NCBI GenBank assembly: GCA_963580875.1
Contig: CAUZMC010000001.1
Location: forward strand, 793-64,792
Direction: 5' to 3'
DNA from: Dehalococcoidia bacterium
Lineage (GTDB): Bacteria > Chloroflexota > Dehalococcoidia > Lucifugimonadales > UBA2985
Length of the DNA stretch: 64,000 nucleotides
The translations under genes and the position numbers were made by a program. The notes beneath the pieces are model-generated. The model saw only the letters and a program-made list of their open reading frames with translations. It did no database searches and was not told the origin of the DNA. Shown here one piece after another: positions 31,780-46,051 of this stretch (within the stretch, counting starts at the first letter, position 1; every line of letters begins with the position of its first letter).

Positions 31780-32442
31780 CTAGTCTAGCTGCTTTTTTAG
31801 TAATCTGACAGCAGCTTCTATCCCATCGGCGTGATCGAAAATCGCTGAGCCTGCCACCACCACCTGTGCTCCCGCCTTTGCCACCAGAGGTGCAGTATTG
31901 GCGTTTATGCCACCGTCTACCTCCAACTCAGCTTGAATTCTCCTCTGCTCCATGAACTGACGCACATTGGCAATCTTCTGAGGGCTTTCGGTGATGAACT
32001 TTTGGGCAGGGAGCCCTGGGTTCACGGTCATCACCAGTATTTGGTCGAGTAACTGTAGTACTTCTTCAATGCTTGTCACTGAGGTGCCCGGGCTTATAGC
32101 TACTCCTACCTTGGCTCCGTACTCTTTTATCTGTGTGATGGTCCAGTGCAGCTGGGTGCATGCCTCAGCGTGGATCGTGATTATGTCTGCTCCAGCATCC
32201 AAGAATGAGGCGATGTGACGTTCTGGTTGCTCCACCATCATGTGTACGTCCAATGGTAAATCAGTCCACTTTTTTATGGCCTCTACTGTACGCGGCCCCC
32301 AGGTGAGTCCTGGCACAAAGTGTCCGTCCATTATGTCCACGTGTATGAGGTCTGCCCCAGCTTTGGTGACTTCTGTTACGTGTTCACCAAGGCGTGCGAA
32401 GTCCGCTGACAGTATCGATGCAGCCAGCTTGATACTGCTCAT
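31780..32442 (-). CDS. rpe: Ribulose-phosphate 3-epimerase
   Basis: The start 'MSSIKLAASILSADFARLGE' and the motifs 'HVDIMDGHFVPGLT', 'DVHMMV' and 'MTVNPG' are present. Trimmed to ATG 32442, which overlaps the upstream gene's stop (ATGA). Confidence 0.92.
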   Translation of the reverse strand: MSSIKLAASILSADFARLGEHVTEVTKAGADLIHVDIMDGHFVPGLTWGPRTVEAIKKWTDLPLDVHMMVEQPERHIASFLDAGADIITIHAEACTQLHWTITQIKEYGAKVGVAISPGTSVTSIEEVLQLLDQILVMTVNPGLPAQKFITESPQKIANVRQFMEQRRIQAELEVDGGINANTAPLVAKAGAQVVVAGSAIFDHADGIEAAVRLLKKQLD

Positions 32443-32975
32443 CGCGGCCACCTGGTTTTCGGGTCTATGTCGTAGAGTAGTTGTTGTAGTGAGGATTGGT
32501 ATTTTGCCTCGTGATGCCATCCAGAGAAATCGAGGACATGGGTTGCTAGTACATCTGATTTCTGTTCATGCTGCCATTCGTTCAGCATATAGTCGTCAAG
32601 GCGTATGGGAAATAGTACGTCTCCATTCAACAATTCTGGTTCCATGTCGAGCGTTGCCGCACGCTTTTTGCGACGGTTGTTTGCAGTTCTGATAATGGAT
32701 TCTTTTTGTAAGGCATGTTCAATCTCCTTAGGGACCCCATCCATTTTCAGGGAGTTTTGTGAACAGATTGGTAACATTTTATCGTCGTCCTTAATCGGCC
32801 GGCCAATCGTAGACCATACCTTTCTTCCTACAACTGTGTCTTGTATGTATTCCCAGCATGGCATGCCTATGGCATTCAAATCTTTACATAGACGTGTAGC
32901 CAACTCTGCATCTACGGATGAGTAGCTCACGAAGCAACGGTAGTGTTTTCTCTCGCTGTTTATTTGTGTTACCAA
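32439..32975 (-). CDS. Standalone TIR-domain protein (178 aa)
   Basis: TTG start 6 nt after the argH stop, with GAGG upstream. 'YRCFVSYSSVDAELATRLCKDLNAIGMPCW', 'LPICSQNSLKMDGVPKEIEHAL', 'LFPIRLDD' and 'DFSGWHHEAKYQSSLQQLL' follow the bacterial TIR (TIR_2-type) layout, including a candidate catalytic Glu. No second domain is present. Confidence 0.7.
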   Translation of the reverse strand: MVTQINSERKHYRCFVSYSSVDAELATRLCKDLNAIGMPCWEYIQDTVVGRKVWSTIGRPIKDDDKMLPICSQNSLKMDGVPKEIEHALQKESIIRTANNRRKKRAATLDMEPELLNGDVLFPIRLDDYMLNEWQHEQKSDVLATHVLDFSGWHHEAKYQSSLQQLLYDIDPKTRWPR

Positions 32976-32981
32976 TCCTGT

Positions 32982-34355
32982 TTACCTCGCTATCAACGGT
33001 GTATCAAGAATTTGATGAGCCTCTTTTACTGCTTCTTCAACTCTCAGTTGGTTGGTGCCTCCTGGCACATCGCGGCTGGCGATGGATGAGTTAGCGTTTA
33101 TGGCGTATATGTCCTCATTGAAATTTGGAGAGAGTTTTTTGTACTCTTCCAGTTCCAATTCTGCTAGACCCTTGCCGTTGGCATCGGCATAGCGCACCAA
33201 CTTGGCTACGATACCGTGTGCGGTGCGAAATGGCTCGCCCTTACCAACAAGGTAATCGGCAAGGTCTGTGGCTAAAATGTTGCTATCCCGTGCGGCCGCT
33301 CGCGTTCGATCGGCGTTGATTGTCAGTGTGCTAATCATGCCGTTAAATGCATCCAGTGTGCTCAGTAGAGTATCCACTGTGTCAAAGAAGCCTTCCTTGT
33401 CCTCTTGGAGGTCACGGTTGTATGTGAGGGGTAGTCCCTTGAGTATGGTCAGTATTCCAATAAGGTGGCCGTAGACACGGCCAGTTTTGCCGCGAGCCAG
33501 CTCTGCAAAGTCAGGGTTGCGTTTTTGTGGCATGATGCTGCTGCCTGTGGTGTAGTCATCGTCCAGGCGAATGAATCCGAACTCCTGTGATGACCAGAGC
33601 ACAAGTTCCTCTCCTAGGCGTGAGAGGTGCATCATGCACGTGGCGGCGTCGGCGTGGTACTCCACGAGGAAGTCTCTGTCCGCAACGGCGTCCATGCTGT
33701 TCTTACTTATCTCGCGGAATCCCAATTCTTTTGCAACGAACTCACGGTCTAAGGGGTACGGAACTCCGGCTAGAGCGCCGCTACCGAGAGGAAGTACGTC
33801 GGTTCTATACAAGCAGTCCTGGAGTCGCTCCCTGTCTCGCTGAAGCATATGAAAGTAGGCTAGTAGGTGATGTGATAACAGGACTGGTTGGGCGCGCTGT
33901 AGATGTGTGTATCCAGGAATAACCACGCCATGATTAGCCTCGGCGGTGGCAAGGAGAGTAGCTTGAAGCGTTTTTAGTATTTTCTGTGTGTTACCTATGG
34001 CCTCTTTGCAGTAGAGGCGCATATCTGTGGCCACTTGGTCGTTGCGGGAACGGCCCGTGTGGAGCTTGCCAGCCACATCGCCTATTTTTTCAAAGAGGCG
34101 GGCCTCTATGTTCATGTGTAGGTCTTCCAAGGTCTCTTTCCATGGGAAAGAGCCTTCATCGATCTCATGCTGGATACTGTTAAGTCCACTGTCGATAAGC
34201 TCAGCGTCCTTGTCGGTGATTATGCCCTGTTTTGCCAGCATACGGGCGTGTGCCATTGACCCGGCCAGGTCCTGTCGGTACAGACGGCGGTCGTAGTGGA
34301 TGGAGGCGGTATAGGACATAGTTCTTTTTTCGTTGGACATTGGTTTGTTATTCAT
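32982..34355 (-). CDS. argH: Argininosuccinate lyase
   Basis: Motifs 'HTGRSRNDQVATD' and 'GSSIMPQKRNPD' form the fumarate-lyase signature. Confidence 0.95.
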   Translation of the reverse strand: MNNKPMSNEKRTMSYTASIHYDRRLYRQDLAGSMAHARMLAKQGIITDKDAELIDSGLNSIQHEIDEGSFPWKETLEDLHMNIEARLFEKIGDVAGKLHTGRSRNDQVATDMRLYCKEAIGNTQKILKTLQATLLATAEANHGVVIPGYTHLQRAQPVLLSHHLLAYFHMLQRDRERLQDCLYRTDVLPLGSGALAGVPYPLDREFVAKELGFREISKNSMDAVADRDFLVEYHADAATCMMHLSRLGEELVLWSSQEFGFIRLDDDYTTGSSIMPQKRNPDFAELARGKTGRVYGHLIGILTILKGLPLTYNRDLQEDKEGFFDTVDTLLSTLDAFNGMISTLTINADRTRAAARDSNILATDLADYLVGKGEPFRTAHGIVAKLVRYADANGKGLAELELEEYKKLSPNFNEDIYAINANSSIASRDVPGGTNQLRVEEAVKEAHQILDTPLIAR

Positions 34356-34383: not shown

Positions 34384-35607
34384 TTATTCTATGTACTCGT
34401 TCAGTCTGGGAAGCTCAAGCGGCTGGATTTTAGCCTGGATACGTCCGGCAAGTCCGTAGATGTGTATGAATCCCTCTGAGGCGCGATGATCGAAAATGTC
34501 TCCAGCATCGTATGTTGCAAGGTTGTGCTGGTAAAGGGAGGAAGGTGAACTTCTGCCCACAACCGTGCAGTTGCCTTTGAAAAGCTTCAGACGGATTGTG
34601 CCTGTGACGTAGCGTTGTGTGCTTTTCACGTAGGCATCCAAGTCTTGGTGGAAGCCCGTGTACCACAGACCATTATACACATGCTCGGCGTATTCCTGGG
34701 ATACTTTCTCTTTCAATCTAAGCTGGTCCCTGCTCAGTGTGATACTTTCCAACGCCCGGTGAGCTGCATGCAGCACAGTTGCCGCGGGTGCTTCGTAGAC
34801 TTCCCTGGATTTTATGCCTACAAGCCTGTCTTCCAGATGGTCAATACGTCCGACACCGTGTTCTCCTGCAACTGCGGCCAACTGTTCTATTAGGGCGACT
34901 CCATTCATATTTTTGCCGTCCAGTGCCACAGGCACTCCCTGATTGAAAGACACTTCAAGGTAAATGGGAGTTTGGGGTGCATTTTCTAGAGACTTAGTTA
35001 GTGAATAGGCTTCCTCCGGCGGTTCCTGCCAGGGGTCTTCCAGGTTCCCGGCCTCAACGCTGCGACCCCACAGGTTTTCATCTATAGAATATGGACTTCG
35101 TTGTGTCAGATCAAGGGGTACATTTCTGCTCTGGCCGTACTGAATTTCCTCATCCCTGGTCATATGCCATTCCCTGGCAGGAGCGATTATACGAAGAGAT
35201 GGATCCATACCAGCAATGCTGAGATCAAAGCGCACCTGGTCGTTGCCCTTGCCTGTGCAGCCGTGTGCCACTGCCTCGGCCCCTTCCCTGTGGGCGACAT
35301 CCAGTAGATATCTGGCTATCAATGGACGTCCTAGGGCTGTTGCCATTGAGTATTGACCCTGGTAGATGGCGCCGGCCTGCAAGGCAGGGAATACGAAGTG
35401 ACGCACGAAATCTTCCCGGCCTTCTACAATAAGGGCCTTAAGTGCACCTGCCGCAAGAGCTCTCTCTTGTACGTCCCTTCTTCCCTTTGCTCCACCCAAG
35501 TTTGCCGTGAGAGTTATGATTTCGGCATCGTAATGTTCTTTCAGCCATGGAATAGCAACTGATGTATCAAGGCCACCGCTGTATGCCAGGACTACTTTAA
35601 TTGTCAC
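34384..35607 (-). CDS. argG: Argininosuccinate synthase
   Basis: Motifs 'VLAYSGGLDTS' and 'AHGCTGKGNDQVRF'. Confidence 0.95.
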   Translation of the reverse strand: MTIKVVLAYSGGLDTSVAIPWLKEHYDAEIITLTANLGGAKGRRDVQERALAAGALKALIVEGREDFVRHFVFPALQAGAIYQGQYSMATALGRPLIARYLLDVAHREGAEAVAHGCTGKGNDQVRFDLSIAGMDPSLRIIAPAREWHMTRDEEIQYGQSRNVPLDLTQRSPYSIDENLWGRSVEAGNLEDPWQEPPEEAYSLTKSLENAPQTPIYLEVSFNQGVPVALDGKNMNGVALIEQLAAVAGEHGVGRIDHLEDRLVGIKSREVYEAPAATVLHAAHRALESITLSRDQLRLKEKVSQEYAEHVYNGLWYTGFHQDLDAYVKSTQRYVTGTIRLKLFKGNCTVVGRSSPSSLYQHNLATYDAGDIFDHRASEGFIHIYGLAGRIQAKIQPLELPRLNEYIE

Positions 35608-35638
35608 TTTGAATGGTTCTCCTTACAGATTGGATTGT

Positions 35639-36829
35639 CTAGCTGTAAACTACTTTGCTAAATGCTATCTCAAACCGCTCTAGCGCCGTGTCAACCTCCT
35701 GTTGACTCACGTTCAGTGGAGGCATGAAGCGGATGGCATTGGGCCGGACGGGGTTGAGAAGCAGTCCTTCTTCATTGCAAAGCGATACCATTTGTCCTGA
35801 GATATCGCTGCTGAACTGTACTGCAATGAGAAGTCCCATACCGCGAACTTCCGTGATGAGTTCGTGTCTGGAGGCAATGGCATTAAGGCCATCTCTAAGG
35901 TGCTGACCTACTGTTTCGGCATAAGCCGGAATATCATTCTGGACTACGTGATCTACAACAGCGAAGGATGCAGCACACGTTAGAGCGTTACCTCCGTATG
36001 TGGAGCCGTGGTCTCCGGGGGCCAGCAGGCAGAATTTCTCTTTGGCCATGAACGCACCTATTGGTACGCCGCCGCCAAGTCCCTTGGCCAGTGTAATTGC
36101 ATCTGGTTCTACCCCAAAACGCTCGTAGCCAAACAGGGTGCCCAGGCGCCCGATGCCCGTTTGCACCTCGTCCAGGACCATCACCAAGTTCTGTTCATCG
36201 CACCACGCGCGTACCTGCTTTAAGTAATCCATTGATGGGACGATGACGCCTCCCTCTCCCTGTACGGGTTCAAGCATGACGGCGCATGTGTTGCTGTTGG
36301 TGGCTGCTTTGATGGCTTCGATATCGTTGTAGGGCACATTTACAAAGCCAGGAGCTAGGGGTTGCCACTGTTCCTGATAGCTGGGCTGGCCTGTGGCTGC
36401 CGCCATGGTCAGCGTGCGTCCATGAAAGGAGTTTAGTGCTGTTATGATTTCGTATGCTCCGTTTCGGTTGATCTTGCCGTACTTGCGGGCCAGTTTGACG
36501 GCTCCCTCGTTGGCTTCCGCACCGCTGTTGCTGAAGAAGATACGGTCTAGGCAGCTGTTTTCTACTAGAAGCTGGGCCAACTTAACCTGGGGTATGGTAT
36601 AGAATTGGTTGGAGGTCTGCATCAAGGTGTGAGCCTGTTCCTCAATGGCGCTGACCAGAGATGGATGACAATGTCCAAGAGTATTGACTGCCCAACCAGA
36701 TGTGAAATCTAGATACTCTTTGTCGTTTTCGTCCCAAACTAACGTACCTTTCCCTTTCACAATCACCACCGGTTGACGTCGAGCCACCTGCATATAGTAC
36801 TTATTTTCTAGATCAATCAAGTTGCTCAT
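35639..36829 (-). CDS. argD: Acetylornithine aminotransferase
   Basis: Class III aminotransferase with 'SNSGAEANEGA', 'DEVQTGIGR.G' and the 'LAKGLGGG' PLP-Lys region. The call also rests on arg-operon context. Confidence 0.9.
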   Translation of the reverse strand: MSNLIDLENKYYMQVARRQPVVIVKGKGTLVWDENDKEYLDFTSGWAVNTLGHCHPSLVSAIEEQAHTLMQTSNQFYTIPQVKLAQLLVENSCLDRIFFSNSGAEANEGAVKLARKYGKINRNGAYEIITALNSFHGRTLTMAAATGQPSYQEQWQPLAPGFVNVPYNDIEAIKAATNSNTCAVMLEPVQGEGGVIVPSMDYLKQVRAWCDEQNLVMVLDEVQTGIGRLGTLFGYERFGVEPDAITLAKGLGGGVPIGAFMAKEKFCLLAPGDHGSTYGGNALTCAASFAVVDHVVQNDIPAYAETVGQHLRDGLNAIASRHELITEVRGMGLLIAVQFSSDISGQMVSLCNEEGLLLNPVRPNAIRFMPPLNVSQQEVDTALERFEIAFSKVVYS

Positions 36830-39642
36830 TTTTCTCCTTCTGATATGGACTTTATCATCTGTTTCAAGTTCGTTGCTAGTTGGTTTAGAGTCTGCTGAAT
36901 GTCCTCTATGGATTGCCGTATGTCTTCGATTTGCTGTTGCTCTGTGTCATACGTGTGTAGTGACGTAGTGTCGCCACCATCTGAATCAGGTCGTTTTTCC
37001 AGAAGTGCGTCAAGAGCGCTTTGGAAATCGCCCTTCATAACAACTCGTTTGGCATCGGCTACAATCACCTGCTTAAGTTCCGGGAATGTTATGTTATCTG
37101 CCTGTATGTAAAGAGGCTCAACGTACATTAAGAACTTTTCCCCTTCATGCTCAATGGGGGTGACAAGCAGATTGCCTCTGATGCATCTGGCACCCCTTTG
37201 GCACAGCAGAGTGAACTGCTGTTTGATTGTGAAATCCTGGTCTATGCGTGCTTCTATCTGTTCTGGTCCGTCCACTTGAATGCCTTTTGGAAAGAAGAAC
37301 GCTTTTAGGCTACCATACTGCCCACGGTCGTTGTCCATACGGGCGGCCAACCATGCCACCTGATTTGGCTTGTTGAGTGGGGTGAATGGGAGCATGAGAA
37401 CAAATTCTTCCTTCTCCTCGCCCGGAAGCTTCATTATGACATGGTATGGCTGTATTGGCTGCATTGTTTCAAAGAATAGTTCCTGTGGTATGCTCCATGG
37501 GTCTTCTTTGCGATAAAAGTCGGTGGTGTCTTTCATATGGTATAAGAGGTATTTTTCAGCCTGTATGGAGAAGAAGTCACGTGGATAGCGAATGTGAGAT
37601 TGCAGGTCTTTAGGCATCTCTCTCCCTGACTTGAATAGGCCCGGGAATATATTTGAATAGGTCTGAATTAGTGCATCCTCTTCGTCAAAGATATAGAAGT
37701 CTACCTCACCTGTGTAGGCGTTGACTACTGCCTTTACGCTATTTCGGATGTAGTTGAAATCATCGCGGTACGGGTCTGAGTATGGATAATGATCTGTGAC
37801 GGTATAGGCATCCTGAATCCACCATAAATTGCCTTCGCTCACTACTATATATGGGTCTGAGTCCAATCGCAGGAATGGAGCCAATTGTTTTACTCTATCC
37901 TGGATTAGTCGCCTGTACTGGATTCTGCTCTCGGATGATATAGCTCCGCTGATTAGGATGTTGATGTCTACGAACTCCAATGCATAGGCTAGTCTGTGAG
38001 CCACAGAACTGAGCTGTACCCCGCCGCCGCCATCGTATTTATACTCTGTGTTGGCGACTGGGTTCGAATCTATAGCAGGGAAATCGAATTCTGGTTCCTT
38101 GGACTTGACTATGACATAGTTTGCGCTGTTCTCTCCATAGTAGATCTGTGGTTGTGTTATCTGCGGGACGAGCCCTTCTAGTGACTCCGTAGCTGCTTTT
38201 GGGGGAATGTCTTTAATGTAGAATTCAGGTTTCCCTTCGGCTGTGAACTCCGTCGTCGGGCTCATGGCTATCCCGAAGCCATGAGTGAATTGGAGTCGGC
38301 TATTTACCCAGGACTGTGATTCCTGTGGCAGATCCTCAGGGAAAAGCTCACGCGCTCCTAAGACCACCTGGCGAATTTCTCCATTTATGTTGTAGCGGTC
38401 TATATCCACTCCCACGAACCGATAGTAAGCTCTGAAGAACTGAATCTGGTTGTATATGCTCGTGAGCGGGCGGCGGTCCCACAACCGCACGTTGTTAATT
38501 GTTCCAGGATTGGCTGCCACAGCTTCCGCGGATAGAGGGGCTAGCTCGCCAGCTCGACTTCCTGTATCTATGGTGGCCAGATCGTAATCTTCCTCAACGA
38601 TGCGGTCTAGGGCGAAGCCATGCCGTGTGAATTCTAGGTGGTGAGGAATATAAGCGCGTTCCTTGTCCAATTCGTTGGGATCTACTTGGAAGCGTTGTAC
38701 AAGAGATGGGTAAATTGCCCCCACTATTATGGCCGCCGTAATCCACAAACCAAGACCGCCCACGATTATTCGAGGAGATCGGAAATAGGCGTTGGTAAGG
38801 AGCAGTACTCCTATCATGCTGCCTATAGCAATAAGAATATAGAGTGTTGGGAGACGTGCGTGTAGGTCGGTATATGAGGCACCGAAGATAGCTCCGCTGG
38901 AGGAAAACAGGAGTTCGTAGCGGTCCATCCAGTAGCTCCATGTTATAACTAAAAGCAGCAGGCCCAATAGAATTGAAGCGTGACTCATTGCATGATTAAT
39001 TGTCTGAGTTAAGTTTATTCCGCTTAGTTTTATTTTGATGAGGTATATTGAAATTACAACTAATATTGTTGTTGTTATGGCTCCAAGCAACCATCCCTGA
39101 ATAACATTTAACATTGGTAACGTGAACACGTAGAAAGACACGTCATTGTGGAATACTGGGTCATCTGTGTTGAACTGGACATTGTGGATGAACTTAAGCG
39201 CCGTTTCCCATTGACTGCTCGCTATGGCACCGAAGATAATGGCCAGCAGGAAAATAATTAGCCACGTGCCCCACGTAAAAAGGCACTTCATCCAATCCTG
39301 AACAGCGAGCGACAAGGATATTGTCGGCTCACCCTTGAAGTTTTTGTATGCGAACAAGGTGTTTGGTATGATGATAGTCGTAAAGCCCAAGGCCCCAAAG
39401 AAAAAGAGCCACAGCTTGGTGCCCACAATCTTCATGTAGACGCTGCTGTAGTCGAGTGCCTCGAACCAGAGCCAATTGGTGAATAGCTGTCTCAGTATGT
39501 TTAGGAGGACGAGGAATAGTATTAGGCCAAAAACTATCAGTCCCCACTTCAACATCCGGGTTGAATCAAAAGATATAACAGACCTTCTGGTTTCTCCATT
39601 GTGGAATGGCGACCAGTCCTGATCGCCTTTGAAGCTAGACAT
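36826..39642 (-). CDS. UPF0182-family large membrane protein (COG1615-like, uncharacterised)
   Basis: 938 aa with about 7 N-terminal hydrophobic helices, then a large soluble region and a coiled-coil, Gln/Glu-rich tail. The architecture and size match the UPF0182 family known from Actinomycetota (for example Rv3193c). Its stop overlaps the argD ATG (ATGA), and its start lies 5 nt after the argB stop. Confidence 0.7.
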   Translation of the reverse strand: MSSFKGDQDWSPFHNGETRRSVISFDSTRMLKWGLIVFGLILFLVLLNILRQLFTNWLWFEALDYSSVYMKIVGTKLWLFFFGALGFTTIIIPNTLFAYKNFKGEPTISLSLAVQDWMKCLFTWGTWLIIFLLAIIFGAIASSQWETALKFIHNVQFNTDDPVFHNDVSFYVFTLPMLNVIQGWLLGAITTTILVVISIYLIKIKLSGINLTQTINHAMSHASILLGLLLLVITWSYWMDRYELLFSSSGAIFGASYTDLHARLPTLYILIAIGSMIGVLLLTNAYFRSPRIIVGGLGLWITAAIIVGAIYPSLVQRFQVDPNELDKERAYIPHHLEFTRHGFALDRIVEEDYDLATIDTGSRAGELAPLSAEAVAANPGTINNVRLWDRRPLTSIYNQIQFFRAYYRFVGVDIDRYNINGEIRQVVLGARELFPEDLPQESQSWVNSRLQFTHGFGIAMSPTTEFTAEGKPEFYIKDIPPKAATESLEGLVPQITQPQIYYGENSANYVIVKSKEPEFDFPAIDSNPVANTEYKYDGGGGVQLSSVAHRLAYALEFVDINILISGAISSESRIQYRRLIQDRVKQLAPFLRLDSDPYIVVSEGNLWWIQDAYTVTDHYPYSDPYRDDFNYIRNSVKAVVNAYTGEVDFYIFDEEDALIQTYSNIFPGLFKSGREMPKDLQSHIRYPRDFFSIQAEKYLLYHMKDTTDFYRKEDPWSIPQELFFETMQPIQPYHVIMKLPGEEKEEFVLMLPFTPLNKPNQVAWLAARMDNDRGQYGSLKAFFFPKGIQVDGPEQIEARIDQDFTIKQQFTLLCQRGARCIRGNLLVTPIEHEGEKFLMYVEPLYIQADNITFPELKQVIVADAKRVVMKGDFQSALDALLEKRPDSDGGDTTSLHTYDTEQQQIEDIRQSIEDIQQTLNQLATNLKQMIKSISEGEK

Positions 39643-39647
39643 TGCCT

Positions 39648-40460
39648 CTAATCAATCCTGGTGCCGGAGGAGTGTCCCGCTACAAAATCTAGTAGAGAAT
39701 TACTTCTTCTCCCATCTAATATCTGGGCAACTCTAACCTTTTCTAGTGCACGCAAGCAAGCCTCTACCTTTGGTACCATGCCACCTGCAATTGTGCCTGA
39801 ACTTATTAAATCGGTTACTTGAGCTGAGGTGAGTTTGTTAATAACGTTGCGGTTAGAGTCCATTACCCCTTCCACATCGGTTAGAAAGACCATTGACTCT
39901 GCCTGTAGTGTGCGTGCTATCTCACCAGCGGCGGTATCACCGTTGATGTTTAATAGAGCTCCGCTGTGCTCCGAGGAATCTATGACATGAATGGCCACAG
40001 GCGCTATTACTGGTATGTATCCAGAGGTTAGGGCCTGGTGGATGGGAGCAGTGTCTACCTGTGTAATTTTCCCCACGTACCCAAGCTCTGGGTCCAGGAT
40101 TTCTGCTTGAAGCATTCCCCCATCTACACCACTCATTCCGATTGCTTTTCCTCCTAGTCTTTGAATGGAGGCCACCAAGTTCTTGTTTACAAGTCCAGCC
40201 AGTGTTGCAGCTACAATTTCCATGCTTGTGGCATCGGTAATCCTGAGGCCATTTACGAAGTGAGCGAGTGCGCCCTGCTTCTCCATCCATTGAGAGATTA
40301 CCTGCCCACCACCGTGAATTACCACCGGAACCTCACCCTGCTGTTGCAGCGCAACAAGATCCTGTATTGTGGTGTCTTTATTGCTTAAAACGCTTCCTCC
40401 TATCTTGATTACCAAGGTAGGAGGAAGGTGTACATCAGGAGTCAAGCTACTCTTTTCCAT
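39648..40460 (-). CDS. argB: Acetylglutamate kinase
   Basis: Motifs 'IKIGGS', 'VVIHGGG' and 'NINGDTAA'. Confidence 0.93.
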   Translation of the reverse strand: MEKSSLTPDVHLPPTLVIKIGGSVLSNKDTTIQDLVALQQQGEVPVVIHGGGQVISQWMEKQGALAHFVNGLRITDATSMEIVAATLAGLVNKNLVASIQRLGGKAIGMSGVDGGMLQAEILDPELGYVGKITQVDTAPIHQALTSGYIPVIAPVAIHVIDSSEHSGALLNINGDTAAGEIARTLQAESMVFLTDVEGVMDSNRNVINKLTSAQVTDLISSGTIAGGMVPKVEACLRALEKVRVAQILDGRRSNSLLDFVAGHSSGTRID

Positions 40461-40533
40461 TTATCGATTTCATGACGTGGTTTTTAGGCTACCGCTGTGA
40501 TGCTCCCTAGGAGGGCTGCACAGCGGGCACGTA

Positions 40534-41757
40534 TCACGTGGTGTAAGCGCTGTTGAAGGTGACGTACTCTTCGCTGATATCGCAGCCCCAAGCGGTTGCA
40601 GATGCGGTGCCAAGGTTAAGATTAAGGCGTATGCTAATTTCAGGCCCAGTCATGGTTAAGACCACCGCGTCTTTGAAGTATGGTATGGGGCGGCCCTCTT
40701 CCATAATACATACATCACTGATGTAGAGAGCTATTAGGTTCTCTACAAGTTCAGCGCCGCTGTATCCAAGTGCAACAATGATGCGACCCCAGTTGGGGTC
40801 ACCGCCGTGGATGGCGGACTTGACCAAGGTGGAAGCGGCCACGGCTCTAGCGGCGGCCCTAGCATCGCTCTCTGTTACAGCGCCTTCTACAGTGACATTT
40901 ACCAGCTTGGAAGCACCTTCGCCGTCTCTGGCTATCTCTCTTGCCAACGCGATGGATACTTCATTTAGTGCGTGCATGAAGGCTTCTTCGCCCGGACTGC
41001 CAGATGTAATGGTATCTCCACCGGCGGCTCCATTTGCCATAATAATAACGCTGTCATTTGTGCTTGTATCACCGTCGATGGTAATCATATTGAATGATGC
41101 ATCAACTGATTTAGAGAGGGATTTCTGAAGGAATTTTTGCTCAACTGGTGCATCTGTTGTCATGAAGGCTAGCATAGTCGCCATGTTGGGGTGGATCATT
41201 CCGGAACCCTTGGAAATGCCTCCAAGTATGTAGGTGTTCTCTCCAATATTGAAGGAAACTGCGAATTCTTTTGATATGGTATCCGTGGTCCGAATTGCCC
41301 GGCCCAGTGCATGTCCTCCGTTTTCGTCTGCGGTTAGCTGCACTTTGGGTACACCGTTGCGGATTAATGCCATTGGTAGCTCAACTCCTATAAGTCCGGT
41401 GCTACAGGCAAGGACAAGTTCTGGGTCAATGCCCAGGTGATTTGCTGCTATGTCAGCCATTTCCAAGGCATCTGTCATTCCTTGATCGCCTACGCAAGCA
41501 TTGGCTATTCCGCTATTGATGATTATTGCCTGTGCGTATCCAGAAGCCACTCTGCGCTGGTCAAGGACAACAGACGGTGATTTGATTTGATTTGTGGTGA
41601 AAGTTCCCGCGACAGTGCAGCGTGTCTCAGAGCTGACGATGCCAAGATCTAGCTTATCCTTGGTGTATGTCCTGATGCCTGAATAGGTTGCTCCTGCTAA
41701 GAACCCCTTTGCAGACGTTATTGTGCCATCTTTCAACCACTTCAACTCTACGTTCAC
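40534..41757 (-). CDS. argJ: Bifunctional ornithine acetyltransferase / N-acetylglutamate synthase
   Basis: Motifs 'ITSAKGFLAGATYSGIR' and the autoprocessing site 'HPNMATMLAF'. The track ORF (to 41874) is trimmed. The start is GTG 41757 or TTG 41745, the latter with GAGGTGA upstream. Confidence 0.9.
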   Translation of the reverse strand: MNVELKWLKDGTITSAKGFLAGATYSGIRTYTKDKLDLGIVSSETRCTVAGTFTTNQIKSPSVVLDQRRVASGYAQAIIINSGIANACVGDQGMTDALEMADIAANHLGIDPELVLACSTGLIGVELPMALIRNGVPKVQLTADENGGHALGRAIRTTDTISKEFAVSFNIGENTYILGGISKGSGMIHPNMATMLAFMTTDAPVEQKFLQKSLSKSVDASFNMITIDGDTSTNDSVIIMANGAAGGDTITSGSPGEEAFMHALNEVSIALAREIARDGEGASKLVNVTVEGAVTESDARAAARAVAASTLVKSAIHGGDPNWGRIIVALGYSGAELVENLIALYISDVCIMEEGRPIPYFKDAVVLTMTGPEISIRLNLNLGTASATAWGCDISEEYVTFNSAYTT

Positions 41758-42228
41758 CTCGAGTAATCTATATATTGCGTGGAACTGATACCAGTATAAC
41801 ACTATACTAGGCACAACAAAAGATGCGAGGAGAGATATACATACGCATCTTTTGAGAGCGCAATGTGGCTTCATTCATCAGAAAACATGGGAAGTGATAT
41901 GCTTCTGTTTAGAATTCGCCCCCTCAGCGCGAAATTTCTCTTGGATGACTATAAACATAGCCTTGGTGTGCGAAGAGTATTATGTGTAGATCTACACTAT
42001 CTGCGTGAGCAGATTGCGATAGACGGACAGGATTTGGCGTGAGATATGTTCCAACAAGGATTTCCGGTCTGATATAAGAATGTCAAGGAGCACTACGTTT
42101 ACAGCAGTGAATTTTCTTTGCCGCCGCGTTGCTTTAATGCGGAGTGTCAAACAGATCTTGGGAAACATATGAGAGTGACACACCAAGAAAGGCAATCACA
42201 TCAACGATGAACAATCCCTTAGCCGGGT

Positions 42229-43608
42229 TCACTCCATCTCCACTGTTCCTGCTTTTCTTTCCAGTTCTTTCTGAAGTCTCCGAAGCCTGCTGCTCAATCT
42301 AACTGGATATTTGTCGGCTTTCTTCAGGCTCTTGAATCTGTCATCTAGGGCCGAAAAATCCTGTTGAAAGCGTTCTCTTATCTCCGGTAAAGATGGCAAG
42401 GGCTTTGTTATTTTGCCCTCTCCCATGAAGGTTTCCAAAAGGGCATCAGCTCTGGGTTCCGGAAGCTGATCATCTGCAAGGCCGATGACATCACCGCTCA
42501 GTTGCCCTTTTGAGTCCATGAGCCGGAACACTTGTTTCTCATCTGCCAGTGATATTTTCCCAGTGCTGAGCTTGAGGACTGGCCGTTCGTCATACTTTAC
42601 AAGCTTGTAGGCCATGTCCAGCCAGGGAGCATCTCCAGAGACACCCATGCGTGTTCCAATACCAAAGCCATCTATGGGAGCATCCGCTGCCACTAGCCTC
42701 TCTACCTCAAACTCGTCCAGCCCTCCACTGGCGAGGATGGTTACGTATCCAAGCTCCGCTTCATCCAAGATTTTTCGTACCTGTCGACTCAGCTCGATGA
42801 GGTCGCCGCTGTCTAGCCGTACGCCTCTCAGTCTGTTTCCCTTGGACTCCATTTCATGGGCGACCACGACGGCTTTGTGCGCTCCAGCGACTGTATTGTA
42901 GGTGTCAATGAGAAGAACGGTGGTCTCAGGGAAGCTCTTGGCAAATGCTCTGAAGGATTCCAATTCATTCTCGAAGCTGGTGACGTATGAGTGAGCCATG
43001 GTCCCAGTTACAGGTATACCGTATGTTTTCCCGGCTAGGACGTTGCTGGTCGATTGGAAACCAACTATGTAGCTGGATCTTGCTGCTTTCATGCCCGCGT
43101 CTACTCCGTGTGTGCGTCTCAGTGAGAAATCAGACACAGACCTATTTCCGGCTGACCAAAAACACCGAGCCGCCTTGGTAGCAACCACGCTCTGGAGGTT
43201 GAGTTGATTTATGACCAAGGTCTCTACCAGCTGCGCTTCGATTATAGGCGCTGTGACCTCCAGCATAGGTTCGCCATAGAAGCAGAGGCGTCCCTCAGGA
43301 ATTGCGCGGACATTTCCTGTGAATCGAAGATGGCACAGATAATCCAGGAATTCGCTGGCAAATATCCCGGTGGAGTGTAGGTAATCAATGGCTGCCGACG
43401 AAACGGAGAACGCCTCCAGGTAGTTCAACACATCTTCCAGGCCGGCGGCTACAAGGTAGGGTCGATTGACTCTGGATTGGCGCACGAACAGACTGAAGGT
43501 GCCAGGAGCGAACATCTGCTCTTGCATGTAGCTCTGTGCCATAGTCAACTCGTAGAGGTCCGTGAATAATGCCGTTTCTTCAGGGGAGAGTGAGCCAGGC
43601 CTGTTCAT
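42229..43608 (-). CDS. pncB: Nicotinate phosphoribosyltransferase
   Basis: Motifs 'LFTDLYELTMAQSY' and 'GTMAHSY' on a type II PRTase barrel of about 460 aa. Confidence 0.88.
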   Translation of the reverse strand: MNRPGSLSPEETALFTDLYELTMAQSYMQEQMFAPGTFSLFVRQSRVNRPYLVAAGLEDVLNYLEAFSVSSAAIDYLHSTGIFASEFLDYLCHLRFTGNVRAIPEGRLCFYGEPMLEVTAPIIEAQLVETLVINQLNLQSVVATKAARCFWSAGNRSVSDFSLRRTHGVDAGMKAARSSYIVGFQSTSNVLAGKTYGIPVTGTMAHSYVTSFENELESFRAFAKSFPETTVLLIDTYNTVAGAHKAVVVAHEMESKGNRLRGVRLDSGDLIELSRQVRKILDEAELGYVTILASGGLDEFEVERLVAADAPIDGFGIGTRMGVSGDAPWLDMAYKLVKYDERPVLKLSTGKISLADEKQVFRLMDSKGQLSGDVIGLADDQLPEPRADALLETFMGEGKITKPLPSLPEIRERFQQDFSALDDRFKSLKKADKYPVRLSSRLRRLQKELERKAGTVEME

Positions 43609-43885: not shown

Positions 43886-46051
43886 TTGATACCGCTGAAG
43901 CTATCGCTAAAAAATTTCCTTTCCTATCGCGATAGAGCACCAGTCCTTGATCTGGAGGGTGTGCATGTTGCTTGCCTATGCGGCGATAATGGCCACGGTA
44001 AATCGGCCTTATTGGATGCAATAACCTGGGTCCTTTGGGGTACCGCTAGGGCTAGGGTTCAGGAAGAGTTGGTCTATCAGGGCGAAAGCGACATGATGGT
44101 TGACCTTGAGTTCCAGGCTGGTGACGGTCGTTACTGGGTGTCCAGGAGGTTTGCACGTCCCACAAGGGGCCGTCAGGGGGCCACGTTTCTGGAGCTTTTT
44201 CACTCCACCGAAGAGAGTTTCCAGCCGATTACAGGTAACTCCGTGCGAGAGACAGAGGCAAAAATTCGATCGTTGCTCCGCATGGACTATGACACCTTTG
44301 TCAACAGCGCATTCATTCTTCAGGGCAGGGCTGATATGTTCACTACAAGTACGCCATCAAAGCGCAAGGAGCTTCTTGGTGAGGTACTCAACCTATCCTG
44401 GTACGAACGTTTGGCAGAGAAGACCAGAGCACAGGCCAGGGAGAGAGATGCCTCAGTGAGAATGCTGGAAGCTGATATAGGGACCATAGATGGTGAGATA
44501 TCACGCAAAGAAGGATATCAGGCTCAGATGGGCATAATAACGGGAGAGTTGGCAGTTTTGGACACTGATGTACGTGGTCGAGAATCCAGGCTTGATGCCC
44601 TTCAGGCGGAAATCCACCGACTCCAAACCTTGAAGCAAGAGTTGAGTGGATTGGAACTAGAAGAAAAGCGAGTTTTTGAGGAACTGAGAGGACGGGAGTC
44701 ACGGTTGAGATTACAAAGGAAGCGAGTTGAGGAGATTATGGTCGATGCCGAGCGCTTGCCTAAGCTGGAATTTGAGCTTATACAACTTCGCATCTTCTTG
44801 GATGAACTGTCCACTCCTTCCCAGGAAACTGATCAGCAAAGGATACAAGTCCGAGAATTTCAATCTCAGGTTCTTCATCTTAGACAAATCAATTTGGGGT
44901 TGAAAGCGGAGATGGATGATCTTAGAGTGAAGGTGGACCTCCTTCACGAGGCCAGTGGGCCGGACGGGATCGGGGCCAGTTGTCCTCTATGCGGTGAGGA
45001 CCTAGGCGAAGAAGGGTGTCAACATCTTGCTGCCAACTACGAGTCACAGGGAAGACAGAAGGCTGCCAGCCATCGTGAGAACGATGTCTCCATAACTCGG
45101 ATGGAAACTGAGAGAATAAAGATGGAACAGGAATTCGCGAAAATGGAATCCGAATTCATAGATATTCGTAAGAAAGAGGAAGATCGTCGTGACTCCCTGT
45201 TCAGAGCGGTTGAGGGGGCTAGGGCCGCTGGGGACATGGCCGATCAACTTACTGACGCTCTGGAATCTGAGGAAGCGCTGTTGCAAGTGAACCACCAGCG
45301 CTTGCAGGAAGTGCAATTGGCCATGCCTTCACTGAAAGGAGCGCTTGTCTTGCTATCTGGCATTCTGGATTCTCAGAACGAGGAGAAATCACATTTGGCT
45401 GCTTTAAGGGTGCGGCAAGGACGTCTTCTCGAAGATAGTGGTGTGGTGCATGGCCAACTGGAAAGGTGCCGTGAGCTTGAGCTTAGGCGTGTGGAAAAAG
45501 CTGAATCCCTAGGTGTATCCTCGCATCAGAAGGGGGTTTACGACCAGCTAGCGGTGGCATTCGGCAAGAGTGGAATACAGGCACTTTTGATTGAGCAGGC
45601 CCTTCCCGAGTTGGAGGACCAGGCCAACGATATTCTGGGTCGTGTTACAGATCATCGTATGAACTTGAAGTTGGAGAGTCAGCGAGAGAGGCGCGGAGGC
45701 GGAGATCCGAGAGAAACATTGGACATCAAGATTTCCGATGAGCTTGGCACACGCAGCTATGAAACATACAGCGGTGGCGAGGCCTTCCGCATAAACTTCG
45801 CCCTTCGCATTGCCCTTTCCAAACTTCTCGCCAACCGCTCAGGGGCACCGTTGCCTACCCTGTTTATAGATGAGGGGTTCGGTACACAGGACGCAGAGGG
45901 TTTGGAAAAGCTGGTGGAAGCCATAAATGCAATTCAGGGCGATTTCCAGAAGATAATCGTGATAACTCACATAGAAGAGCTGAAAGAGGCCTTTCCCGTA
46001 CGCATAGAGGTTACAAAGTCCAATGAAGGATCCACTTTTACTATAACCTAA
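43886..46051 (+). CDS. SbcC/Rad50-like SMC-family ATPase with a central zinc hook
   Basis: The N-terminus reads 'LKLSLKNFLSYRD....LCGDNGHGKSALLDAITWVLWG' (Walker A), followed by 'FVNSAFILQGRADMF'. Long heptad-rich coils flank the hook 'CPLCGEDL' (nt 44981-44992). The C-terminus carries the signature 'YSGGEAFRINFALRIALS' and Walker B 'LFIDEGFGTQD'. TTG start. Confidence 0.85.
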   Translation: MIPLKLSLKNFLSYRDRAPVLDLEGVHVACLCGDNGHGKSALLDAITWVLWGTARARVQEELVYQGESDMMVDLEFQAGDGRYWVSRRFARPTRGRQGATFLELFHSTEESFQPITGNSVRETEAKIRSLLRMDYDTFVNSAFILQGRADMFTTSTPSKRKELLGEVLNLSWYERLAEKTRAQARERDASVRMLEADIGTIDGEISRKEGYQAQMGIITGELAVLDTDVRGRESRLDALQAEIHRLQTLKQELSGLELEEKRVFEELRGRESRLRLQRKRVEEIMVDAERLPKLEFELIQLRIFLDELSTPSQETDQQRIQVREFQSQVLHLRQINLGLKAEMDDLRVKVDLLHEASGPDGIGASCPLCGEDLGEEGCQHLAANYESQGRQKAASHRENDVSITRMETERIKMEQEFAKMESEFIDIRKKEEDRRDSLFRAVEGARAAGDMADQLTDALESEEALLQVNHQRLQEVQLAMPSLKGALVLLSGILDSQNEEKSHLAALRVRQGRLLEDSGVVHGQLERCRELELRRVEKAESLGVSSHQKGVYDQLAVAFGKSGIQALLIEQALPELEDQANDILGRVTDHRMNLKLESQRERRGGGDPRETLDIKISDELGTRSYETYSGGEAFRINFALRIALSKLLANRSGAPLPTLFIDEGFGTQDAEGLEKLVEAINAIQGDFQKIIVITHIEELKEAFPVRIEVTKSNEGSTFTIT

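What the first reader, a model, noticed from the sequence alone, without database searches (positions are those of the whole stretch)
32439..32975. Standalone TIR-domain gene translationally coupled inside the arginine operon, between argH and rpe
The 178-aa ORF carries the block order of bacterial TIR domains: 'FVSYSS.D', 'G...W', 'ICSQNSL......KEIEHA' with a candidate catalytic Glu, and 'DFSGW....Y...LQQLL'. It has no other domain. It starts 6 nt after the argH stop, and its TGA overlaps the rpe ATG (ATGA), so it looks co-transcribed and co-translated with core metabolic genes. Bacterial TIR proteins are best known as NAD+-cleaving or signal-generating parts of antiphage systems (Thoeris ThsB, TIR effectors). 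Those normally sit beside partner genes in defence islands. Here there is no ThsA-like partner, no other defence gene and no mobile-element signature within the window. Two readings are possible: an orphan sensor whose effector is encoded elsewhere, or a TIR/NADase co-opted for a housekeeping or regulatory role tied to arginine and pentose-phosphate expression. I do not know of a described system with this arrangement.
Basis: partly seen in the sequence, partly recalled or inferred. Interest (0 to 1): 0.7.

Follow-up and report, generated by a model that had tools for sequence, protein, structure and literature searches.

The report
Truncated TIR gene inside arginine operon
The small TIR-domain gene wedged between argH and rpe is real and still under selection, but it is the leftover catalytic half of a longer pentapeptide-repeat–TIR gene that has sat in this same operon slot throughout a group of marine Chloroflexota and is being lost step by step in some of them.

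Summary
A 178-codon ORF on the minus strand (32439-32975) starts with TTG 6 nt after the argH stop, and its TGA overlaps the rpe ATG. It scores above the Pfam TIR_2 threshold and gives a confident TIR fold. Its Glu84 is the only invariant residue in 118 relatives and aligns with the catalytic Glu77 of SPARTA TIR-APAZ.

It is not an original standalone TIR. It is the C-terminal domain of a large, uncharacterised family of single-gene pentapeptide-repeat(PRP)–TIR proteins (more than 3,000 clusters). Full-length PRP–TIR genes occupy the same argH–[gene]–rpe slot, with the same ATGA overlap, in at least six related metagenomic lineages. The window's lineage lost about 490 nt (the intergenic spacer plus the PRP domain), and the TTG start is a former internal Leu codon.

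The truncated gene is still under purifying selection (dN/dS 0.185 against an 83%-identical ortholog, p=1e-10, N-terminal part included). Sister lineages show decay: frameshifts, four nonsense codons, or only the C-terminal half. All of them keep the 3' end that carries the rpe ribosome-binding site.

There is no ThsA-like partner or defence island in the window. Most likely it is a still-functional NAD-cleaving TIR that has lost its sensor or scaffold domain. It is a new variant of a known kind, of moderate interest.

The parts
32439..32975 (-). TIR-only ORF, 178 codons (TTG...TGA). It is the truncated ortholog of the PRP–TIR genes.
   Evidence: ORF list and translation. Pfam TIR_2 49.5 bits. 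AF2 model pLDDT 86.9 with TIR fold matches. dN/dS 0.185 against L001.
32973..32984 (-). argH stop TAA (32984-32982), 6-nt spacer ACAGGA, TTG start (32975-32973). The stop and the start are in the same frame. This is a probable termination–reinitiation junction.
   Evidence: Sequence. The same TAA-N6-TTG is present in L001. TTG aligns with the internal Leu codon CTG of full-length orthologs. Codons 14-66 have dN/dS 0.153, p 5.5e-4, so translation must begin upstream of residue 14, and TTG is the only in-frame ATG/GTG/TTG start codon there.
32724..32726 (-). GAG codon of Glu84, the putative catalytic glutamate.
   Evidence: It is the only invariant column among 118 family members. It aligns with Glu77 of SPARTA TIR-APAZ chain 8j7s_B (residue number from my count along the printed alignment). 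E77A abolishes SPARTA NADase activity (PMC9097488).
32439..32442 (-). ATGA: the TIR stop overlaps the rpe start.
   Evidence: Sequence. The same overlap is found in L001, L087, L090, L091, L092, in L096 by gene coordinates, and in L006.
32448..32453 (-). AGGTGG, a Shine-Dalgarno-like element for rpe, encoded by the last TIR codons (Arg-Trp-Pro).
   Evidence: Read directly from the sequence. Equivalent G-rich elements lie in the last TIR codons of all orthologous loci. This is an inference, not a test.
31780..32442 (-). rpe (ribulose-phosphate 3-epimerase), the downstream coupled gene.
   Evidence: Pfam Ribul_P_3_epim E 2e-74.
32982..34355 (-). argH (argininosuccinate lyase), the upstream gene.
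   Evidence: Pfam Lyase_1 + ASL_C2.
34384..41874 (-). The rest of the co-oriented cluster: argG 34384-35607, argD 35639-36829, UPF0182 36826-39642, argB 39648-40460, argJ 40534-41874.
   Evidence: Translations. Pfam. The same gene order is found in L001, L087, L090-L092 and L096.

Best explanation
The ORF is a genuine, translated TIR_2-domain gene. It arose when a roughly 490-nt deletion removed the ribosome-binding region and the whole N-terminal pentapeptide-repeat (PRP) domain of a PRP–TIR gene. That gene is a long-term, vertically inherited resident of the argH–rpe junction in a clade of uncultured, mostly marine Chloroflexota (Dehalococcoidia-like). The deletion left the complete TIR domain plus 13 linker residues, and a former internal Leu codon (now TTG) lies 6 nt after the argH stop. 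I infer that the gene is transcribed with the arg genes. I infer that it is translated by reinitiation at that TTG. I infer that its own termination is coupled to rpe initiation: the stop and start overlap as ATGA, and the rpe Shine-Dalgarno-like element lies in the last TIR codons. The protein keeps the invariant catalytic Glu84 and almost all family-conserved residues, and it has been under purifying selection since the truncation. It therefore most likely still acts as an NAD+-cleaving or NAD+-processing TIR enzyme that needs self-association for activity, as its closest characterised relative, the SPARTA TIR, does. It has lost the PRP module that presumably sensed a trigger or scaffolded assembly in the parent protein. 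The locus as a whole is in reductive evolution. Sister lineages carry frameshifted, nonsense-riddled or half-deleted copies, and these always keep the 3' end that rpe translation depends on. Shown here: the TIR identity, the origin by truncation, the conserved synteny, the purifying selection and the decay series. Inferred: the NADase activity, the translation mechanism, and the sensor or scaffold role of the PRP domain.
For: TIR identity: Pfam TIR_2 49.5 bits; AF2 model pLDDT 86.9 with Foldseek probability 1.0 to SPARTA TIR-APAZ, BtpA, SARM1 and AbTir; Glu84 is the only invariant residue in 118 relatives and aligns with SPARTA catalytic E77.

Parent family: an exhaustive HMMER search gave 3,287 representatives at E<=1e-3. 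The top full-length hits are 320-450-aa proteins that match the query over their C-terminal ~170 residues. Their N-termini are pentapeptide repeats.

Synteny: full-length PRP–TIR lies between argH and rpe in L087-L089, L090, L091, L092 and L096. It also does so in a deep branch, L099/L100, where argH is 65%, rpe 54% and TIR 45% identical.

Truncation: the junction alignment shows that window and L001 lack the spacer plus codons 1 to ~156. Homology resumes exactly at TTG = CTG(Leu). L104 shares the same junction.

Selection: dN/dS 0.185 (37 synonymous against 32 non-synonymous differences; p 1e-10). The N-terminal half gives 0.20, the C-terminal part 0.12, and codons 14-66 give 0.153. The neighbours argH and rpe give 0.11 and 0.067.

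Decay series: L104 has at least two frameshifts and has lost the EIERALQ motif. L006 has four in-frame stops in the N-terminal half. L167 has the argH stop joined directly to the C-terminal half, and it is 100% identical to L006 over the next 768 nt.

Empty site: argH abuts rpe in two other Dehalococcoidia genomes, L007 and L070.

Operon: no promoter-like or terminator-like site was found at either junction.
Against: No enzymatic or expression data exist. A TIR that has lost its regulatory domain and is co-expressed with housekeeping genes should be either harmless (inactive) or costly, so its present activity is uncertain. Gene callers disagree on the start, giving products of 178, 158, 143 or 112 aa. 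The purifying-selection estimate rests on only two distinct intact sequences, the window type and the L001 type. A third lineage with the same truncation (L104) has decayed, which shows the gene is dispensable. PADLOC recognises no defence system here: the best hits are Aga_TIR 3e-6 and ThsB 9e-4. The role of the PRP domain is conjecture.
Confidence: 0.6

Rival explanations
1. The ORF is a functionless remnant. The TIR-only ORF has no activity of its own and persists only because it is wedged between argH and rpe. Ribosomes must read through it to reach the ATGA overlap, and the rpe ribosome-binding site lies in its last codons, so most deletions or stops would reduce rpe expression.
For: All decayed copies (L104, L006, L167) keep the 3' end and the ATGA overlap. 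The sensor or scaffold domain is already gone. The window copy carries changes at positions that are nearly invariant among close relatives (R87H, E118G).
Against: A coupling constraint needs only an open frame, not a conserved amino-acid sequence. dN/dS is 0.185 overall and 0.15 in codons 14-66, far from the 3' end. Of the 29 family-wide near-invariant positions, 26 are retained and the other 3 differ conservatively; the invariant Glu84 is also retained (my count). L006 and L104 show that stops and frameshifts in the 5' part are tolerated, so coupling does not force an intact full ORF.
Confidence: 0.15
2. The protein has a housekeeping or regulatory role. PRP–TIR, and its TIR-only derivative, would be a metabolic or regulatory NAD-linked enzyme of this clade that is deliberately co-expressed with arginine-biosynthesis and pentose-phosphate genes, and not an immune protein.
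For: The syntenic position inside a core operon is stable across lineages with argH+rpe protein distances of 0.11-0.31, and possibly about 0.5 (L099). Both domains are under purifying selection, with no sign of diversifying selection. No partner gene recurs, and most contexts of other family members are metabolic. The family is almost absent from viral contigs: 1 hit in 2.9 million. pncB (NAD salvage) heads the same co-oriented gene string.
Against: The gene has been lost or pseudogenised repeatedly in close relatives and is absent from other Dehalococcoidia with the same argH–rpe junction, so it is dispensable. The arg/rpe association is confined to one clade: about 70 of 80 other PRP–TIR loci have neither gene nearby. 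Some family members lie next to restriction-modification, SoFic or PDC candidate defence genes. I know of no precedent for a metabolic bacterial TIR (own knowledge).
Confidence: 0.13
3. The protein is an orphan ThsB-like signal generator. The TIR-only protein would make a cyclic-ADPR-type signal on infection, and an effector encoded elsewhere in the genome would read that signal.
For: It is a TIR-only architecture like some ThsB proteins. There is a weak PADLOC ThsB1 match (E 9e-4). The catalytic Glu is retained.
Against: No SIR2, SLOG or Macro gene was found in 64 kb. The protein derives from a single-gene PRP–TIR family with no recurrent partner. Its closest solved TIRs are NAD-depleting SPARTA effectors, not ThsB. 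Its loss of the PRP domain removes the only candidate sensing module.
Confidence: 0.1

Closest known systems
Pentapeptide-repeat–TIR_2 proteins (uncharacterised; annotated as 'toll/interleukin-1 receptor domain-containing protein' or 'pentapeptide repeat-containing protein' in Chloroflexota, SAR202, Acidobacteriota and Bathyarchaeota)
   Same: The TIR domain is orthologous: 73% identity to P0154 and 66% to P0004 over all 173-174 aligned residues. It has the same EIE(R/H)ALQKE motif, the same helical insertion after the motif, and the same C-terminal DFS.W..E.KY block. It sits in the same argH–rpe slot with the same ATGA overlap.
   Different: The window protein lacks the whole N-terminal PRP domain and most of the linker (about 156 residues). 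It starts at a TTG that is an internal Leu codon in the full-length genes.
SPARTA TIR-APAZ (short pAgo-associated TIR NADase; PDB 8oz6, 8qlo, 8j7s, 8spo)
   Same: It is the closest solved TIR both by profile search and by fold (Foldseek probability 1.0, TM about 0.55). The catalytic Glu aligns (E84 with E77). By analogy, activity probably depends on oligomerisation.
   Different: There is no APAZ domain and no Argonaute partner. Sequence identity is only about 20%. The neighbours are argH and rpe.
Thoeris ThsB and other bacterial TIR-only proteins
   Same: It is a small protein that consists of a TIR domain only, with the catalytic Glu.
   Different: There is no adjacent ThsA. The HMM match is only marginal (E 9e-4). 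The TIR-only state is secondary here, produced by domain loss.
Bacterial TIR NADases with an N-terminal self-association domain (AbTir, BtpA/TcpB, PdTir) and SARM1
   Same: It has the TIR fold. The parent has an N-terminal non-catalytic domain followed by a C-terminal TIR. Removing such N-terminal domains is known to change regulation (own knowledge).
   Different: The N-terminal module of the parent is a pentapeptide-repeat beta-helix, not a coiled coil or ARM/SAM domain. This family has no virulence or axon-degeneration context.

Membership tests
TIR domain superfamily (Pfam TIR_2, PF13676) | The sequence matches the family HMM above the curated threshold. | tested here: met
   49.5 bits against a cut-off of 28; E 7.3e-13; residues 15-91.
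TIR domain superfamily (Pfam TIR_2, PF13676) | A flavodoxin-like alpha/beta TIR fold. | tested here: met
   AF2 model with pLDDT 86.9 and pTM 0.82. All top Foldseek PDB hits are TIR domains, with probability 1.0.
TIR domain superfamily (Pfam TIR_2, PF13676) | A conserved catalytic glutamate, as in enzymatic TIRs. | tested here: met
   Glu84 is invariant in 118 relatives. It aligns with SPARTA E77, whose E77A mutant is inactive (PMC9097488).
TIR domain superfamily (Pfam TIR_2, PF13676) | NAD+ hydrolase or cyclase activity. | not testable with these tools
   This needs a biochemical assay.
Pentapeptide-repeat–TIR family | A C-terminal TIR with the family-specific motifs, close to full-length members. 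| tested here: met
   Identity is 66-73% to P0004 and P0154 and 40-45% to many others, over residues ~10-175.
Pentapeptide-repeat–TIR family | An N-terminal pentapeptide-repeat domain. | tested here: not met
   The ORF has only 13 residues before the first TIR strand. No PRP match lies upstream, since argH ends 6 nt before the start. The gene is therefore a truncated derivative and not a full member by architecture.
Pentapeptide-repeat–TIR family | An orthologous genomic position in the clade (argH–X–rpe). | tested here: met
Thoeris (ThsA/ThsB) | ThsB-type TIR protein. | tested here: inconclusive
   The PADLOC ThsB1 models give E 9e-4 and 0.026 only.
Thoeris (ThsA/ThsB) | An adjacent ThsA effector (SIR2/SLOG or Macro domain). 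| tested here: not met
   The neighbours are argH and rpe. No ThsA, SIR2, SLOG or Macro hit was found among 50 window ORFs. The rest of the genome could not be examined.
SPARTA (short pAgo + TIR-APAZ) | A TIR fused to an APAZ domain and encoded next to a short Argonaute. | tested here: not met
   The protein has 178 aa with no APAZ. There is no pAgo in the window. The similarity is limited to the TIR domain.

The most novel reading that the evidence does not exclude
PRP–TIR and its TIR-only derivative are not immune genes. They would be a clade-specific NAD-linked metabolic or regulatory enzyme that is purposely co-translated with the arginine-biosynthesis and pentose-phosphate genes, with pncB heading the same gene string. 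That would be the first bacterial TIR with a housekeeping role. The TIR-only form would be a streamlined version that dispenses with the PRP module.
Probability: 0.12. Interest if true: 0.75.

Novelty: new variant of a known kind. Interest (0 to 1): 0.42.

Why it matters
Bacterial TIR genes are normally thought of as mobile, fast-turnover immune modules in defence islands. This locus differs in four ways.

- A TIR gene has been inherited vertically inside a core biosynthetic operon. Its reading frame is physically interlocked with the next housekeeping gene.
- The natural series runs from full-length, to sensor-less TIR-only, to frameshifted or nonsense-bearing copies, to a half-gene, and possibly to an empty site.
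- This series shows how such a gene is dismantled, and how overlap with an essential neighbour shapes which part survives.
- The sensor-less form remains under purifying selection.

The TIR-only form is therefore a ready-made natural experiment on what a bacterial TIR domain can do without its N-terminal module. The work also flags a large, uncharacterised single-gene PRP–TIR family (more than 3,000 clusters) that current defence-system catalogues do not model.

Tried and rejected
- Single-sequence AF2 gave a useless model (pLDDT 35). I replaced it with an alignment-based model.
It returned only distant relatives (at most 53% identity) and not the source genome or close relatives. It did yield two 'empty-site' Dehalococcoidia.
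- I first read the stretch before the TIR in L006 as the argH C-terminus. Comparison with full-length proteins showed that it is the PRP–TIR linker.
- I considered that L104 might be an independent truncation. The DNA alignment shows the junction is homologous to that of window and L001, so there was one ancestral deletion.
- I looked for a conserved partner gene around 80 PRP–TIR loci by all-against-all clustering. Only shadow ORFs and rpe recur.
- PADLOC hits in the window (LmuB, mad3, mad8, PbeC, AbiLi) turned out to be two oligopeptide ABC ATPases and a lone SbcC/Rad50-like ATPase, not defence systems.
- Rfam found only two tRNAs, and the promoter/terminator scans found nothing at the junctions.
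- The codon-level parsimony split of changes between the window and L001 branches left 27 ambiguous codons, so I did not use it for branch-specific dN/dS.
- The NJ tree of argH+rpe could not resolve whether the empty-site genomes are ancestral or secondary losses.
- Literature searches found no paper describing a PRP–TIR system or a TIR in an arginine operon.
Full report
**1. The observation**

The ORF is on the minus strand, 32439..32975, and has 178 codons. Its TTG start follows the argH stop codon TAA after six nucleotides (ACAGGA) and is in the same reading frame as argH. Its TGA overlaps the ATG of rpe as ATGA, so rpe is 31780..32442.

Pfam confirms the neighbours: argH is Lyase_1 + ASL_C2, and rpe is Ribul_P_3_epim. 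The ORF itself scores 49.5 bits against TIR_2 (cut-off 28, E 7e-13) over residues 15-91. NCBIfam gives nothing significant. PADLOC gives only weak TIR-domain matches: Argonaute-associated TIR at 3e-6 and ThsB1 at 9e-4.

The consensus scans find no promoter-like or terminator-like site at either junction. Rfam finds only two tRNAs, far away.

**2. What the protein belongs to**

A word-index search found only near-identical relatives. The exhaustive HMMER search of 1.84 billion representatives found 3,287 proteins at E<=1e-3 and 833 at E<=1e-10. In most of the best hits the whole query (residues ~10-175) matches the C-terminal end of a 320-450-aa protein.

Those proteins begin with 'MANPEHV...' followed by a run of pentapeptide repeats (A[ND]LSGA[ND]L...). 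A conserved linker follows (GPSSIGIDT...FLxGAGVP...), and then the TIR. A second search with the closest full-length protein, P0004, returned more than 3,283 clusters with the Pfam architecture Pentapeptide + TIR_2. Where they are named at all, the names are 'TIR domain-containing protein' or 'pentapeptide repeat-containing protein', from Chloroflexota, SAR202, Acidobacteriota and Bathyarchaeota.

I found no paper that describes this architecture as a system.

**3. The same slot holds the full-length gene in relatives**

Contig look-ups show the order argJ-argB-UPF0182-argD-argG-argH-[PRP–TIR]-rpe for five proteins:

- P0004 (three contigs)
- P0155, from an NCBI Chloroflexota MAG
- P0156
- P0157
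- P0154

The downstream genes also match the window: a Methyltransf_28 family gene, citrate synthase and 2-oxoacid:ferredoxin oxidoreductase.

The TIR stop overlaps the rpe start as ATGA in the window, L001, L087, L090, L091 and L092, and in L096 by its gene coordinates. In L090 the gene caller missed this start. The last TIR codons (…W-G/P…) encode a G-rich Shine-Dalgarno-like element for rpe.

The argH-to-PRP–TIR spacer is variable, from 9 to 814 nt. In two loci it contains a palindromic repeat element.

A metagenome scan added a much deeper branch, L099/L100/L101/L173. There argH is 65%, rpe 54% and TIR 45% identical to the window, and the order is again argH–PRP–TIR–rpe, with a gap of about 80 nt before rpe.

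About 70 other PRP–TIR loci have neither argH nor rpe nearby. No partner gene recurs among them. Their neighbours are mostly metabolic genes, with a few restriction-modification, SoFic or PDC candidate-defence hits. Only one hit was found in 2.9 million viral contigs.

Two other Dehalococcoidia genomes have argH directly abutting rpe, with an 8-nt overlap in one and a 1-nt gap in the other. This is the empty site.

**4. The window copy is an N-terminal truncation**

I aligned the junctions. The window and L001 lack the argH–PRP–TIR spacer and codons 1 to ~156 of the full-length gene, about 490 nt in all. Homology resumes exactly at the start codon. 'TTG GTA ACA CAA ATA AAC AGC GAG' (L V T Q I N S E) corresponds to 'CTG GTG CCA AGA CCA AAT GGT GAG' (L V P R P N G E) in the linker of L087. 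The TTG start is therefore a former internal Leu codon.

L001 has the same TAA-N6-TTG junction. This type is also represented by L002-L005, L097 and L098; it is 83% identical in protein. L104 has a homologous junction too. The deletion therefore happened once, in a common ancestor.

**5. Is the truncated gene alive?**

Nei-Gojobori estimates between the window and L001 give dS 0.44, dN 0.081 and dN/dS 0.185. These rest on 37 synonymous and 32 non-synonymous differences (Fisher p 1e-10). By region:

| Region (codons) | dN/dS |
|---|---|
| 2-91 | 0.20 |
| 120-178 | 0.12 |
| 14-66 | 0.153 (p 5.5e-4) |

The values for argH and rpe are 0.11 and 0.067. Full-length orthologs give 0.09-0.29 in both domains.

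The result for codons 14-66 matters because annotation pipelines call this gene with four different starts: TTG (178 aa), GTG-21 (158 aa), Met36 (143 aa) and Met67 (112 aa). Constraint on codons 14-66 means translation starts upstream of residue 14, and TTG is the only in-frame ATG/GTG/TTG start codon there.

The identical 178-aa protein occurs on 23 contigs from many samples. Of the 29 family-wide near-invariant positions, the window protein keeps 26 and has conservative changes at the other three (my count). Against its closest relatives it does carry R87H and E118G.

**6. Fold and catalytic residue**

With a 118-sequence alignment, AF2 gives pLDDT 86.9 and pTM 0.82. The best Foldseek hits in the PDB are the TIR domains of SPARTA TIR-APAZ (8oz6, 8k34, 8fex, 8qlo, 8spo). 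BtpA, MyD88, SARM1 and AbTir follow, all at probability about 1.0.

A profile search of PDB sequences also finds SPARTA TIR-APAZ first. It aligns '...DGVPREIERA' with '...EGVLKELAVA' of 8j7s_B. By my count along the printed alignment, this puts Glu84 on Glu77. The E77A mutant of SPARTA has no NADase activity (PMC9097488).

Glu84 is the only invariant column in the 118-member family alignment.

**7. Decay in sister lineages**

- L104 carries the same truncated allele but has at least two frameshifts and has lost the EIERALQ segment.
- L006 retains the linker and the N-terminal half of the TIR in frame, but with four in-frame stops (TAG, TAA, TAG, TGA). Its C-terminal half remains open and overlaps rpe.
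- L167 is 100% identical to L006 over 768 nt, from the EIERALQ codons into rpe. Upstream, however, its argH stop is joined directly to the C-terminal half of the TIR.
- P0155 has a two-residue deletion in the BB-loop region.
- P0276 looks like a recombinant between TIR-only and full-length alleles.

Every decayed copy keeps the 3' end that overlaps rpe.

An NJ tree of argH+rpe gives distances of 0.11-0.31 within the marine clade. L099, L007 and L070 each lie at about 0.5. The tree cannot tell whether the empty sites are ancestral or secondary losses.

**8. Surroundings in the window**

PADLOC scans of 50 ORFs give only generic ATPase hits. These are two oligopeptide ABC ATPases and a lone SbcC/Rad50-like protein at 43886-46051. 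Pfam shows housekeeping genes throughout. There is no SIR2, SLOG or Macro domain, and no integrase or transposase.

The TIR gene has a somewhat lower GC content than argH and rpe (0.45 against 0.52), but it is similar to argB and UPF0182. pncB (nicotinate phosphoribosyltransferase) lies directly upstream of argJ on the same strand. This may be coincidence.

**9. Interpretation**

Firmly supported: the ORF is a real TIR gene, and it is the truncated ortholog of a PRP–TIR gene that has been inherited vertically in the argH–rpe slot of a Chloroflexota clade. It has been kept by purifying selection since it lost the PRP domain, while the locus is being eroded in sister lineages.

Inferred:

- It still acts as an NAD+-cleaving or NAD+-processing TIR that needs self-association.
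- The PRP beta-helix of the parent was the trigger-sensing or scaffolding module.
- Translation starts by reinitiation after the argH stop and is coupled to rpe.

The pure-remnant reading is weakened by the amino-acid-level constraint. The housekeeping reading is weakened by repeated loss and by the clade-restricted association with arg/rpe. The ThsB-like reading is weakened by the origin from a single-gene family and by the lack of any partner gene.

**10. Novelty and score**

TIR domains, TIR-only proteins and the PRP–TIR architecture are all already present in databases. Three things are new:

- the stable embedding in a core operon, with interlocked reading frames;
- the secondary TIR-only state under selection;
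- the visible decay series.

This is a new variant of a known kind. It has moderate interest (0.42), mainly as a natural experiment on TIR regulation and on how gene overlap shapes gene loss.

Noticed in passing
L090:7794-8000 and L091:7187-7450 (between argH and PRP–TIR): A palindromic, MITE-like repeat of about 190 nt (...TGTCATTGCGAGG ... CCTCGCAATGACA...) occurs in both loci. L091 also has a duplicated 'MANPEHV' gene start and about 600 nt of extra small ORFs in this spacer.
   Followed up: no
L090:5897-6403 and L091:5466-5840: A small retropepsin-like aspartic protease gene (Asp_protease_2 / gag-asp_proteas) is inserted between argG and argH in two related lineages but not in the window.
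   Followed up: no
window 36826-39642 (-): A 938-aa UPF0182 membrane protein gene is embedded in the arginine operon between argB and argD. Its ends overlap or nearly abut the neighbouring genes, and it is conserved in all related loci.
   Followed up: no
window 42229-43608 (-): Nicotinate phosphoribosyltransferase (pncB, NAD salvage; NCBIfam E 8e-176) lies directly upstream of argJ, on the same strand as the TIR gene. A link between NAD salvage and an NAD-cleaving TIR is possible, but this may be coincidence.
   Followed up: partly
window 43886-46051 (+): A lone 721-aa SbcC/Rad50-like SMC ATPase matches PADLOC LmuB (E 1e-27) nearly full length, but it is below the TIGR00618 cut-off and has no SbcD or LmuA gene beside it. 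It is flanked by pncB and hypoxanthine phosphoribosyltransferase.
   Followed up: partly
L006:310-1077 versus L167:218-985: The two metagenome contigs are 100% identical over 768 nt but differ completely upstream. One has the TIR N-terminal half with four stop codons. The other has the argH stop joined directly to the TIR C-terminal half. They are either two alleles of one population or an assembly chimera.
   Followed up: partly
P0276 (ENA, 178 aa) versus P0002 and P0154: A TIR-only protein has an N-terminal two-thirds of the L001 type and a C-terminal third identical to the full-length P0154. This suggests homologous recombination between truncated and full-length alleles.
   Followed up: no
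window 32982-32984 and 32973-32975 (-): The argH stop TAA and the TIR TTG start are in the same frame, 6 nt apart, and the same holds in L001. Read-through of the stop would therefore make an ArgH–TIR fusion.
   Followed up: no
L093:9094-9384: In the SAR202 MAG Io17-Chloro-G2, the PRP–TIR gene lies in a different, metabolic context and is followed after 1 nt by a 96-aa ORF with no Pfam hit. The same pair is present in L094.
   Followed up: no
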